Assembly: GCA_946548715.1 (NCBI GenBank) | Contig: CAMNPZ010000002.1 | Coordinates: 2,908-66,907 of the forward strand | DNA from: an uncultured Candidatus Saccharibacteria bacterium | GTDB lineage: Bacteria > Patescibacteriota > Saccharimonadia > Saccharimonadales > Saccharimonadaceae | Length of the DNA stretch: 64,000 nt | Reading direction: 5' to 3' | Part shown: piece by piece, positions 19,123 through 26,315 of the stretch | How positions within the stretch are numbered: position 1 is the stretch's first letter | Layout: the number at the start of each line of letters is the position of its first letter | Program-made: the position numbers and the translations under genes | Notes under the pieces: generated by a model | What the model saw: the letters and a program-made list of their open reading frames with translations, nothing else | What the model was told of the DNA's origin: nothing | The model's database searches: none

Positions 19123-19212
19123 TACGATTATGATTATAACACATTTAGAGTAAAATGACACTAAGGTCCGAGAGTTAGCCAACAAAATAAGGCTAACTAG
19201 AGCCTTAAAAAA

Positions 19213-19289
19213 TGGTGCGAGCGAAGAGACTCTAACTCTCGACCTCTTCCTTGGCAAGGAAGCGCTCTAAACAACTGAGCTACGCTCGC
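19213..19289 (-). tRNA. tRNA-Gly(GCC) with U19/A56 and A73
   Basis: gcgagcgtagctcagttgtttagagcgcttccttgccaaggaagaggtcgagagttagagtctcttcgctcgcacca. Confidence 0.93.
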
Positions 19290-21686: not shown

Positions 21687-23822
<2,136 letters not shown>

Positions 23823-24158: not shown

Positions 24159-26315
24159 TCACTCAAAAACTGGTAGATCATCGGGGAAGGGGTCGAAATC
24201 GGAGTCGGGAAAATCGGAATCGTTAAAGAAATCGTCGGTAAAATTGGGGTCGGTGAAGCCATCGCCATCTTGGTCGCGATAGCCGGCGGAGCCGTAAGGG
24301 GAGGCACCATAGGGGTCGTAGCCAAGTTCGGTGAGAAAACGGGAAGGCATACTGTAACTGCGAGAACCATAGGAATAACGAGACTGAGCATATGTAAGGA
24401 AGAGACGCTCGCGGGCGCGAGTCATGGCGACGTAGGCGAGACGACGTTCTTCTTCGAGCTCGGCTTCATTATCGTAGGCGCGTGAGCCTGGGAAAAGTCC
24501 TTCTTCCATACCAACAATGAAGACAACGGGGAATTCGAGCCCCTTGGCGGCGTGCATGGTCATGAGTGTGACGGAATTATGGCCGGATGCTTCATCGGTG
24601 CTAGACATTAGGGTGGCGTCGGCGAGGAATTCTGGTAGAGTGTCATATTCGGAAGCGTTGCTCGCTAGGACCTCGAGGTTTTGCATGCGATCTTCGGCGG
24701 CGGGAGTGCCGTCGTCGGTGAGAGTGCGAAAATCAAAGTAATCTATAACGTGCTTGACAATATCGCCAGGGTTGTCTTCGAGGTTAGTTTTTTTAATAAA
24801 ATTGATGAGGCGGAGTAGGGCGTTACGGGCTTTGGCGGAATTGAGGATACTGGGAAGATCAGGATTAGTGAGAACATTTGGTTCGTCGATAGAATCGATG
24901 GCGTCGAGGAGTTTCTTGACTGAGACTTCGCCGATGCCAGAAAGGACGTTACTACAAACGCGGGCGAGACTGACTTTGTCGCGCTGATTGATAAGAAGAC
25001 GAAGAATAGCCATGGCGTCTTTGACTTCTTTGCGGTCGTAGAAACGGACGCCGCCGATGATTTTGTAGGGTATATGGTAGCTTAAGAAGGCTTTTTCGAA
25101 GGCGTAGGATTGAGCGTTGGTGCGATAAAGAATGGCGAAATCGGAAAAGTCGGGGTATTCTTTCTGGAGGTTGAGGATTTTCATGGCGACGAAGGTGGCT
25201 TCGGCGGTTTCGTCGCTCAAATTTTCAATATCGACTGGCTCGCCGGCTTCGGCGTCAGTGAAGAGGGTTTTGTCGGTGCGGGTTTTGTTCTCGCGGATGA
25301 TTTTCTGTGAAGCGGCGAGGATGTTCTTGGTGGAGCGGTAGTTTTGTTCGAGTTTGATAACTTTGGCGCCAGGGAAATCTTTTTCGAAATTGAGAATATT
25401 GGTAAAATCGGCACCACGCCAAGAGTAGATAGATTGCCAATCGTCGCCGACGACGCAAATGTTACGGTCTTCGTTGACAAGTAGGCGGACGATGTTGTAT
25501 TGAACGAGGTTGGTATCTTGATATTCGTCGATGAGGATGTGCTGGAATTTGGTTTGCCATTTGGCGCGGATGTCGGGATGGTTTTGGAGTAGTTCGAGCT
25601 CTTTTAGAAGGAGGTCGTCAAAATCGAGAGCGGAAGCTTTGGCTTTTTCGGATTCGTAGCGAGCGAAGATTTTGGCGATGTTTTTCTGGTTGGGATAGAG
25701 AGTAGTGGCGGCGTAATCTTCGGCGGAGTGGCCTTGGTTTTTCTCGCTACTGATGATGGATTGGATGGATTTGGGCTTTAATTGTTTATCGCTGGCGAGA
25801 CCGAGGTCTTTGATGATGCGGCGGATGAGGGAGACTTGGTCGTCGGTGTCGTAAATGACGAAATTGCGATCGAGATCCAGTGCGTCGGCTTCGATGCGCA
25901 GAATTTTGACTGCAATGCTATGAAAGGTGCCCATGTATGGCATGAAAGAGCGTGGCGGATTAGACGGTGCGGCATCTATATCTTGACTCGGGGCAATGCG
26001 GAGCGCGGCAGCGCGAGAGTTAGCGCCGTCCGCCCGTGGCGACGGGCCGGACGGACGCGGCCCCGAGTGAGATGTAGATGCCGTAACGTGTAATAGATGC
26101 CATAATCGTTCGCGCATTTCATTGGCGGCTTTGTTGGTGAAAGTGACGGCAAGGATGCGATGTGGGTCGATGCCGTGGGTGATGAGATTAGCGATACGAT
26201 GGGTGAGAGTTTTAGTCTTGCCAGAACCAGCACCGGCCAGAATAAGTAGTGGTCCGGATAATGTTTTGACCGCCTGACGTTGAGCCGGATTTAATTCCTC
26301 CAGTATTTTGTCCAT
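24159..26315 (-). CDS. pcrA: UvrD/PcrA SF1 helicase carrying an in-frame palindromic insertion
   Basis: AGAGSGKT, DEYQDTN, VGDDWQSIY, LEQNYRS, TMHAAKGLEF, EERRLAYVAMTRA. Confidence 0.96.
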   Translation of the reverse strand: MDKILEELNPAQRQAVKTLSGPLLILAGAGSGKTKTLTHRIANLITHGIDPHRILAVTFTNKAANEMRERLWHLLHVTASTSHSGPRPSGPSPRADGANSRAAALRIAPSQDIDAAPSNPPRSFMPYMGTFHSIAVKILRIEADALDLDRNFVIYDTDDQVSLIRRIIKDLGLASDKQLKPKSIQSIISSEKNQGHSAEDYAATTLYPNQKNIAKIFARYESEKAKASALDFDDLLLKELELLQNHPDIRAKWQTKFQHILIDEYQDTNLVQYNIVRLLVNEDRNICVVGDDWQSIYSWRGADFTNILNFEKDFPGAKVIKLEQNYRSTKNILAASQKIIRENKTRTDKTLFTDAEAGEPVDIENLSDETAEATFVAMKILNLQKEYPDFSDFAILYRTNAQSYAFEKAFLSYHIPYKIIGGVRFYDRKEVKDAMAILRLLINQRDKVSLARVCSNVLSGIGEVSVKKLLDAIDSIDEPNVLTNPDLPSILNSAKARNALLRLINFIKKTNLEDNPGDIVKHVIDYFDFRTLTDDGTPAAEDRMQNLEVLASNASEYDTLPEFLADATLMSSTDEASGHNSVTLMTMHAAKGLEFPVVFIVGMEEGLFPGSRAYDNEAELEEERRLAYVAMTRARERLFLTYAQSRYSYGSRSYSMPSRFLTELGYDPYGASPYGSAGYRDQDGDGFTDPNFTDDFFNDSDFPDSDFDPFPDDLPVFE
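25970..26083 (-). mobile_element. In-frame palindromic element, copy in pcrA (sense to the gene)
   Basis: cccgtggcgacggg at 26033-26046 on +; arms cggcatctatatct / agatgtagatgccg. Confidence 0.85.

What the first reader, a model, noticed from the sequence alone, without database searches (positions are those of the whole stretch)
19213..19289. tRNA-Gly(GCC) with compensated elbow pair U19-A56 and discriminator A73
Seen: the D-loop is AGTTGTTTA (G19 to T) and the T-loop is TTAGAGT (C56 to A), so the near-universal G19-C56 pair is replaced by U-A. Position 73 is A, whereas bacterial tRNA-Gly normally has U73 and archaeal/eukaryotic tRNA-Gly has A73. The other seven tRNAs here keep GG and TTC. 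Staphylococcal non-proteinogenic tRNA-Gly used in wall synthesis also alter these loops, but G51-C63 here favours normal EF-Tu binding. Inference: lineage-specific GlyRS identity rules and an altered elbow recognised by RNase P, the ribosome or T-boxes.
Basis: partly seen in the sequence, partly recalled or inferred. Interest (0 to 1): 0.55.

Follow-up and report, generated by a model that had tools for sequence, protein, structure and literature searches.

The report
Saccharibacterial glycine tRNA, two rule breaks
This glycine adapter RNA (tRNA), almost certainly a working one, breaks two textbook rules (an A instead of a U next to its charging end, and a U-A instead of a G-C pair at its elbow); nearly its whole bacterial class does the same, and the first change goes together with a matching change in the enzyme that loads glycine and the lack of a proofreading enzyme that would otherwise strip it.

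Summary
Observation confirmed; not an error. It is the genome's only tRNA-Gly(GCC) gene (Saccharimonadia, probably Ca. Nanosyncoccus), with the strong EF-Tu T-stem, so most likely the housekeeping decoder of GGC/GGU. The two oddities are separate traits. (1) A73 is in all three Gly isoacceptors across the order and in a second Patescibacteria order. It tracks one GlyRS motif-2-loop residue (Arg, human Arg283 position, versus Gly in U73 lineages), one GlyRS clade that seems to have crossed classes, and no DTD in 212 genomes searched. (2) The elbow is U19-A56 in 76, A19-U56 in 50, G19-C56 in 2 and mismatched in 0 of 128 genomes. A19-U56 recurs in Gly(GCC) with U73 in Bdellovibrio, Clostridia, Bacteroidota and SAR86. 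RNase P and uL1 are conventional and no T-box was found, so altered elbow readers are unsupported; a cell-wall-only tRNA is rejected. Why the elbow is weakened is unproven (tuning of a strong anticodon favoured over drift). The scan noted both traits before on other DNA; the GlyRS-loop, transfer and DTD link was not in the notes retrieved. I found no paper describing either trait here. New variant; interest 0.45.

The parts
19213..19289 (-). tRNA-Gly(GCC) gene, 77 nt with encoded CCA; the only GCC gene in the assembly
19271..19271 (-). U19 in the D-loop (normally G19); G18 at 19272 is kept
19233..19233 (-). A56 in the T-loop (normally C56); U54, U55, G57, A58 and G53-C61 are kept
19216..19216 (-). 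A73 discriminator (normally U73 in bacterial tRNA-Gly); G1-C72, C2-G71 and G3-C70 are kept
19253..19255 (-). Anticodon GCC; reads GGC/GGU, about 67% of the genome's Gly codons
19224..19240 (-). T-arm with G49-U65 and G51-C63, the strong EF-Tu (proteinogenic) signature
   Evidence: PMC12256121
19300..19329 (-). Sigma-70-like promoter match (10/12, extended -10) just upstream; a consensus match only
19188..19207 (-). Terminator-like hairpin with U tail directly after CCA; suggests a stand-alone transcription unit

Best explanation
A functional housekeeping tRNA-Gly(GCC) carrying two independent, inherited lineage traits. (a) A73: an alpha2 GlyRS whose motif-2 loop has Arg instead of Gly arose in a second Patescibacteria class and probably passed to the Saccharimonadia ancestor. 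The Arg grips the top of the acceptor stem, so the enzyme no longer needs U73. With DTD absent, nothing punishes A73, and all three Gly tRNAs moved to the A73 that most tRNAs use. Shown: the covariation, the tree and the missing DTD. Inferred: the relaxed specificity, the transfer and the order of events. (b) Elbow: 19 and 56 still form a Watson-Crick pair, so the flat surface on which RNase P and the ribosome stack is kept, but it is a weaker A-U type pair. Shown: strict complementarity and recurrence in Gly(GCC) across phyla. Inferred (about 45%): selection keeps the elbow weak to offset an all-G/C codon-anticodon helix ('tRNA tuning').
For: Sole GCC gene, needed for 67% of Gly codons, with G49-U65/G51-C63. 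A73 is in nearly all Gly isoacceptors of the order and of a second order in another class (49/51 genomes); most other Patescibacteria have U73. GlyRS loop: Arg in 13/13 Saccharimonadia and 49 Arg + 1 Lys in the second order, versus Gly in 89 of 93 other enzymes; five further U73 class-mates all have Gly. The residue maps to human position 283, which binds G1 and G71 (PMC9908026). T. thermophilus GlyRS has this Arg and charges both A73 and U73 tRNAs (PMC3990555). Family f22 pairs an Arg enzyme with a chromosomal U73 GCC tRNA and A73 UCC/CCC tRNAs. The A73 lineages' enzymes group together (SH-aLRT 94-100), with a U73/Gly-loop class-mate as sister; keeping Saccharimonadia out is rejected at p-AU 0.027. 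DTD: 0/161 and 0/51 in the A73 orders, 17/181 in the phylum draw, and all 15 DTD carriers with a visible GCC tRNA have U73; bacterial DTD is about 100-fold more active on A73 (PMC8754408). Elbow: Gly(GCC) is the only class I tRNA without C56 found in B. bacteriovorus s4, a second Bdellovibrio, Clostridium CAG:567 and a SAR86 genome. In the order, non-C56 occurs only in Gly, Ala and Pro tRNAs. In metagenomes 58/98 W19-W56 tRNAs read GGN/GCN/CCN/CGN boxes, against 6/34 of G19-C56 neighbours.
Against: No charging or translation data. The Arg/A73 link rests on one enzyme clade, so it is about one evolutionary event plus T. thermophilus; the outlying G080 enzyme is not shown to be an independent origin (p-AU 0.165). 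The AU test group was named after the tree was seen, and the trees are quick searches. DTD is also missing in most U73 Patescibacteria (164/181 without), so its loss is permissive only. G319 and G391 both have Lys but differ at 73; G270 has Arg and no tRNA-Gly was found. W19-W56 also occurs in Thr, Arg(UCU/CCU) and Met tRNAs, and the enrichment is not seen in viral contigs (21/103 versus 19/146); the search pattern favours some D-stems.
Confidence: 0.6

Rival explanations
1. The elbow change is nearly neutral: any Watson-Crick 19-56 pair works because RNA readers stack on it, neither synthetase here reads the elbow, and AT-biased mutation plus inheritance and tRNA gene exchange did the rest.
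For: RNase P, the L1 stalk and T-boxes read the elbow mainly by stacking (PMC4810234). This genome's AlaRS ends right after the SAD domain and so lacks the elbow-binding C-Ala domain, and its 455-aa GlyRS is too short for the human-type Ins3 (PMC9908026); the only non-canonical tRNAs are the three Gly and one Ala. W19-W56 is found in many isotypes.
Against: A-U and U-A both occur within 8 families, yet no return to G-C on the same gene body was seen in 126 genomes, although that path (two transitions through G-U) looks easier than A-U to U-A (inference). The same isoacceptor is singled out in unrelated phyla.
Confidence: 0.35
2. The non-G-C elbow is an anti-determinant that hides tRNA-Gly from a protein that reads G19-C56, such as a host or phage tRNA-targeting toxin or a modifying enzyme like TruB.
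For: Proteins read the elbow by hydrogen bonds rather than stacking (PMC4810234). All three Gly tRNAs of this genome fall outside the TruB consensus given in PMC7912444 (A56, C55, U53-A61), and TruB is present. Several carrier lineages are parasites or predators.
Against: The A19-U56 form (50 genomes) fits the TruB consensus. Most UCC/CCC tRNAs of the order are canonical. No candidate factor was identified, and free-living carriers exist (Labilibaculum, Putridiphycobacter, SAR86).
Confidence: 0.13
3. A non-proteinogenic or dual-use tRNA that feeds FemABX-type transferases for cell-wall bridges, as in staphylococci.
For: The genome has four FemAB-family genes, and the affected tRNAs carry Gly and Ala, typical bridge residues.
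Against: It is the only GCC gene; it has G49-U65 and G51-C63, whereas the staphylococcal NP tRNAs lack these and all have UCC. No FemAB match was found in B. bacteriovorus s4, Putridiphycobacter or the SAR86 genome, which carry A19-U56.
Confidence: 0.06
4. Sequencing or assembly error, or a decaying gene.
For: The genome is a MAG in 26 contigs.
Against: Identical in three other species, class-wide, strictly compensated, all stems intact, highest Rfam score in the window.
Confidence: 0.01

Closest known systems
Canonical bacterial tRNA-Gly(GCC) with U73 protected from DTD (PMC6097841)
   Same: G1-C72, C2-G71, G3-C70, C35/C36, cloverleaf, G18, U54, U55, A58, G53-C61; reads GGC/GGU.
   Different: A73 (239 of 232,109 bacterial tRNA-Gly in that paper's table) and U19-A56; no DTD found in the lineage.
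Archaeal and eukaryotic alpha2 GlyRS / A73 tRNA-Gly system (human GlyRS Arg283; archaea lack canonical DTD)
   Same: A73, dimeric GlyRS, Arg at the 283 position, no bacterial DTD (as in archaea).
   Different: The enzyme is the short bacterial alpha2 type (closest solved structures are mycobacterial and Thermus) and nests among Patescibacteria enzymes, so the likeness is most likely convergent.
Thermus thermophilus alpha2 GlyRS (PDB 1ATI; PMC3990555)
   Same: Bacterial alpha2 enzyme with Arg in the motif-2 loop; charges A73 and U73 tRNAs.
   Different: Thermus keeps U73 and has DTD (control); Saccharimonadia have no DTD found and use A73.
Staphylococcus aureus non-proteinogenic tRNA-Gly (NP1, NP2, NEW; PMC12256121)
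   Same: Unusual tRNA-Gly in a genome with Fem transferases and an alpha2 GlyRS.
   Different: GCC anticodon, sole copy, strong EF-Tu T-stem, compensated elbow, A73.
tRNA tuning elements such as A32-U38 of E. coli tRNA-Ala(GGC) (Ledoux 2009, Olejniczak 2005, as cited in PMC11231383; the element itself from my own knowledge)
   Same: A body feature that covaries with a strong anticodon.
   Different: Those lie in the anticodon arm and are tested; an elbow pair in this role is only my inference.

Membership tests
Proteinogenic bacterial tRNA-Gly | Cloverleaf with G1-C72, C2-G71, C35, C36 | tested here: met
Proteinogenic bacterial tRNA-Gly | G49-U65 and G51-C63 (strong EF-Tu binding) | tested here: met
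   against PMC12256121
Proteinogenic bacterial tRNA-Gly | U73 discriminator | tested here: not met
   A73 at 19216; class-wide
Proteinogenic bacterial tRNA-Gly | G19-C56 elbow pair | tested here: not met
   U19-A56; Watson-Crick pairing kept by covariation
Proteinogenic bacterial tRNA-Gly | Expressed, glycylated and used on ribosomes | not testable with these tools
   only contigs are available
Staphylococcal non-proteinogenic tRNA-Gly | UCC anticodon, an extra gene beside the translational set | tested here: not met
   sole GCC gene
Staphylococcal non-proteinogenic tRNA-Gly | Lack of G49-U65 and G51-C63 | tested here: not met
   both present
Staphylococcal non-proteinogenic tRNA-Gly | FemABX-family transferases in the genome | tested here: met
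   four genes
Staphylococcal non-proteinogenic tRNA-Gly | Use as Fem substrate | not testable with these tools
   needs biochemistry
alpha2 GlyRS / A73 system (archaeal-eukaryotic type) | Dimeric GlyRS | tested here: met
   TIGR00389 457.6 bits, cut-off 243.3
alpha2 GlyRS / A73 system (archaeal-eukaryotic type) | Arg at the human 283 position | tested here: met
alpha2 GlyRS / A73 system (archaeal-eukaryotic type) | No bacterial-type DTD | tested here: met
   not found in 161 + 51 genomes
alpha2 GlyRS / A73 system (archaeal-eukaryotic type) | Archaeal or eukaryotic descent of the enzyme | tested here: not met
   scores far higher with bacterial enzymes and nests among Patescibacteria enzymes; no archaeal or eukaryotic rows were in the trees
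alpha2 GlyRS / A73 system (archaeal-eukaryotic type) | DTD2 or other substitute deacylase | not tested
T-box-regulated glycine system | T-box riboswitch in the genome | tested here: not met
   no RF00230 match in a 95.6% complete genome

The most novel reading that the evidence does not exclude
Two Patescibacteria lineages independently moved all their glycine tRNAs to the archaeal/eukaryotic A73 after a horizontally shared GlyRS gained one Arg in its motif-2 loop and DTD was gone; and, separately, bacteria of at least five phyla are selected to keep an A-U type elbow specifically on tRNA-Gly(GCC), making position 19-56 an unrecognised tuning element for strong anticodons.
Probability: 0.3. 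Interest if true: 0.65.

Novelty: new variant of a known kind. Interest (0 to 1): 0.45.

Why it matters
U73 is called invariant or absolutely conserved in bacterial tRNA-Gly (PMC6097841, PMC9908026), and G19-C56 is listed among the most conserved tRNA positions (PMC10424219). Whole bacterial orders break both rules. This is a natural test of the DTD discriminator-code model, and the model passes: A73 was found only where DTD was not. It names a single GlyRS residue that can be mutated to test how a synthetase and its tRNAs change identity together, and it predicts that bacterial DTD would be toxic to the translation of these epibionts. The recurrence of an A-U elbow in tRNA-Gly(GCC), including in cultivable Bdellovibrio, makes the question of why G19-C56 is conserved directly testable.

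Tried and rejected
Literature searches for A19-U56/U19-A56, for Patescibacteria tRNA-Gly discriminator and for Patescibacteria GlyRS transfer gave nothing relevant; the library lacks most subscription papers, and the human GlyRS-tRNA structure paper was not held. 'alpha2 GlyRS explains A73' rejected: U73 Patescibacteria have alpha2 enzymes too. 'DTD loss explains A73' is insufficient: 164/181 phylum genomes lack it. 'A73 and the elbow are one trait' rejected. TruB avoidance as a general cause rejected, because U56 fits the consensus. G080's GlyRS as a second origin of Arg is not shown. The G300 motif hit looks like ProRS and was dropped. 23S rRNA is not assembled, so the L1 stalk and A-site finger could not be examined. 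The MFE fold recovers the acceptor and anticodon stems only, which is uninformative for the elbow. Read laying gave contigs only, with no RNA evidence; small-share runs were not used for habitat. The second A73 order could not be named. Extra U73/G19-C56 GCC genes in G063, G095, G177 and G375 were treated as probable bin contamination, and the U-A/A73 hit labelled Dokdonella (L194) likewise; neither was checked.

Full report
Observation. ARAGORN and Rfam both call tRNA-Gly(GCC) at 19213-19289 on the minus strand. U19 is at 19271, A56 at 19233 and A73 at 19216. G18, U54, U55, A58, G53-C61, all four stems and an encoded CCA are intact. The other seven window tRNAs are canonical. A promoter-like site lies upstream and a terminator-like hairpin directly downstream. 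Neighbours are an EamA transporter and lemA-htpX, with no functional link evident.

Organism and role. The genome is 782 kb and 95.6% complete. An identical tRNA occurs in a Ca. Nanosyncoccus record and several Saccharibacteria records, so this is gut-type Saccharimonadia. The gene is the only GCC gene among 45 tRNAs, and GGU+GGC make up about 67% of Gly codons in long ORFs. The T-stem has G49-U65 and G51-C63, the proteinogenic signature in PMC12256121. Only four tRNAs deviate in the D-loop GG or T-arm: Gly(GCC), Gly(CCC) with C55, Gly(UCC) with U53-A61, and Ala(UGC) with A19-U56.

Not an error. The gene is identical in three other species and has the same three bases in 20 congeners. An unbiased pattern over the order found it in 128 of 161 genomes: 76 U19-A56, 50 A19-U56, 2 G19-C56 and no mismatch (counted by hand). 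Eight families hold both A-U and U-A. The two G-C cases (family f22) have a different gene body and U73, and sit on ordinary chromosomal DNA among degenerate tRNA-like genes. In the rest of the phylum G19-C56 and U73 dominate.

Trait 1, A73. All three Gly isoacceptors have A73 across the order, with rare exceptions. So do 49 of 51 genomes of a second order in another class, which keep G19-C56; that class is mixed, about 31 A73 to 40 U73. The GlyRS is of the alpha2 type, but so are those of U73 relatives. What differs is the motif-2 loop. After FRNEI-x-P, U73 lineages have Gly in 89 of 93 enzymes (2 Asn, 1 Lys, 1 Arg with no tRNA found). All 13 Saccharimonadia have Arg, and the second order has Arg in 49 and Lys in 1. 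This residue maps to human 283, which H-bonds G1 and G71 (PMC9908026). T. thermophilus has the Arg and charges both A73 and U73 tRNAs (PMC3990555). f22 uses an Arg enzyme beside both kinds of tRNA. I infer relaxed rather than switched recognition.

Enzyme history. In GlyRS trees the two A73 lineages group together (SH-aLRT 100, or 94 after adding class-mates), with a U73/Gly-loop member of the second class as sister. Forcing Saccharimonadia out is rejected at p-AU 0.027 (post hoc, quick tree). This suggests a transfer between classes. It also means the Arg/A73 correlation is close to a single event.

DTD. Bacterial DTD deacylates Gly-tRNA-Gly with A73 about 100-fold faster than with U73 (PMC8754408; PMC6097841). 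DTD was not found in 161 Saccharimonadales or 51 genomes of the second order. It is present in 17 of 181 genomes of the phylum draw, and all 15 of those with a visible GCC tRNA have U73. Its absence is permissive, not sufficient.

Trait 2, the elbow. A GTDB scan allowing any A/T at 19 and 56 returned 119 tRNA-Gly(GCC) genes, all complementary. U19-A56 (63) always came with A73 and, where labelled, almost always from Saccharibacteria. In four of five such genomes Gly(GCC) is the only class I tRNA found without C56; the fifth adds two Arg tRNAs. Within the order, non-C56 appears only in Gly, Ala and Pro tRNAs. An any-anticodon metagenome sample gives 34/98 Gly and 58/98 strong-box tRNAs against 1/34 and 6/34 among canonical neighbours, but also Thr, Arg(UCU/CCU) and Met, and viral contigs show no clear enrichment. 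So W19-W56 is a recurring natural variant, enriched in but not confined to strong anticodons.

Elbow readers. RNase P is a full type A RNA, uL1, TruB and Dus are present, no T-box was found and rRNA is unassembled. RNA readers stack on the 19-56 pair (PMC4810234), so a U-A pair needs no partner change. AlaRS lacks C-Ala and GlyRS is too short for Ins3, which removes synthetase contacts and feeds the neutral rival. Four FemAB genes exist, but three of five other carriers of the A-U elbow have none.

Mechanism and odds. Working housekeeping tRNA: about 0.95. A73 allowed by the Arg-loop GlyRS plus no DTD: about 0.7. Reason for the elbow: tuning 0.45, near-neutral 0.35, anti-determinant 0.13, wall partition 0.06. 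All mechanistic steps are inferred from comparison; none is assayed.

Novelty. I found no paper describing either trait in Patescibacteria, in an incomplete library. This scan had noted the elbow covariation and A73 on other genomes; those notes are not independent support. The GlyRS residue, the likely transfer, the DTD test and the cross-phylum recurrence in Gly(GCC) were not in the notes I retrieved. Verdict: a new variant of a known kind, class-wide rather than special to this window; interest 0.45.

Noticed in passing
G000 C26:4990-5066 (L620): tRNA-Ala(UGC) has A19-U56 and closely resembles the A19-U56 tRNA-Ala(GGC) genes of other families, suggesting an anticodon switch.
   Followed up: partly
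G000 C6:50272-50346 and C14:14302-14376: tRNA-Gly(CCC) has C55 and tRNA-Gly(UCC) has U53-A61, so all three Gly tRNAs fall outside the TruB consensus; U53-A61 recurs in many UCC genes of the order.
   Followed up: partly
G192, G197, G209, G259, G289, G299, G319, G335: A group of Patescibacteria has A18 with G55 in tRNA-Gly(GCC), a covariation at the other elbow contact; several Saccharibacterial tRNA-Cys show the same.
   Followed up: no
window 19169-19178 and 19232-19241; L016:1332-1531; L011:1368-1559: A 10-nt inverted copy of the T-arm lies downstream of the gene; in congeners the tRNA's 3' end is tandemly repeated in 64- or 83-nt units with this module.
   Followed up: partly
L214:5392-5576, L215:5284-5565: Family f22's canonical U73 tRNA-Gly(GCC) sits among degenerate tRNA-like genes with odd anticodon loops in a conserved chromosomal spot; possibly a foreign replacement.
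   Followed up: partly
L092:638-1078, L093:500-976: In two Patescibacteria that keep DTD, a gene that looks like dtd lies directly upstream of glyS; coordinates suggest the same in G216 and G254.
   Followed up: no
G000 C8:75-2209, C8:17318-18526, C6:6784-7725: Four FemAB-family peptidyl transferase genes in a 782-kb genome.
   Followed up: partly
G000 C11:2585-4639 (L619): AlaRS is 684 aa and ends after the SAD domain, without C-Ala.
   Followed up: partly
G000 tRNA set: tRNA-Ile(UAU) and tRNA-Arg(GCG) are present, consistent with decoding without lysidine or inosine.
   Followed up: no
window 21699-23822 and 24159-26315: DNA ligase and the UvrD/PcrA-like helicase both carry a similar low-complexity in-frame insert, perhaps a small intragenic element.
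   Followed up: no
L081 (G080): A Saccharimonadales GlyRS that falls far from its relatives yet has the Arg loop; separate origin not shown.
   Followed up: yes
L238-L268: 31 viral contigs carry a W19-W56 tRNA-Gly(GCC) pattern (phage-encoded or at prophage ends).
   Followed up: no
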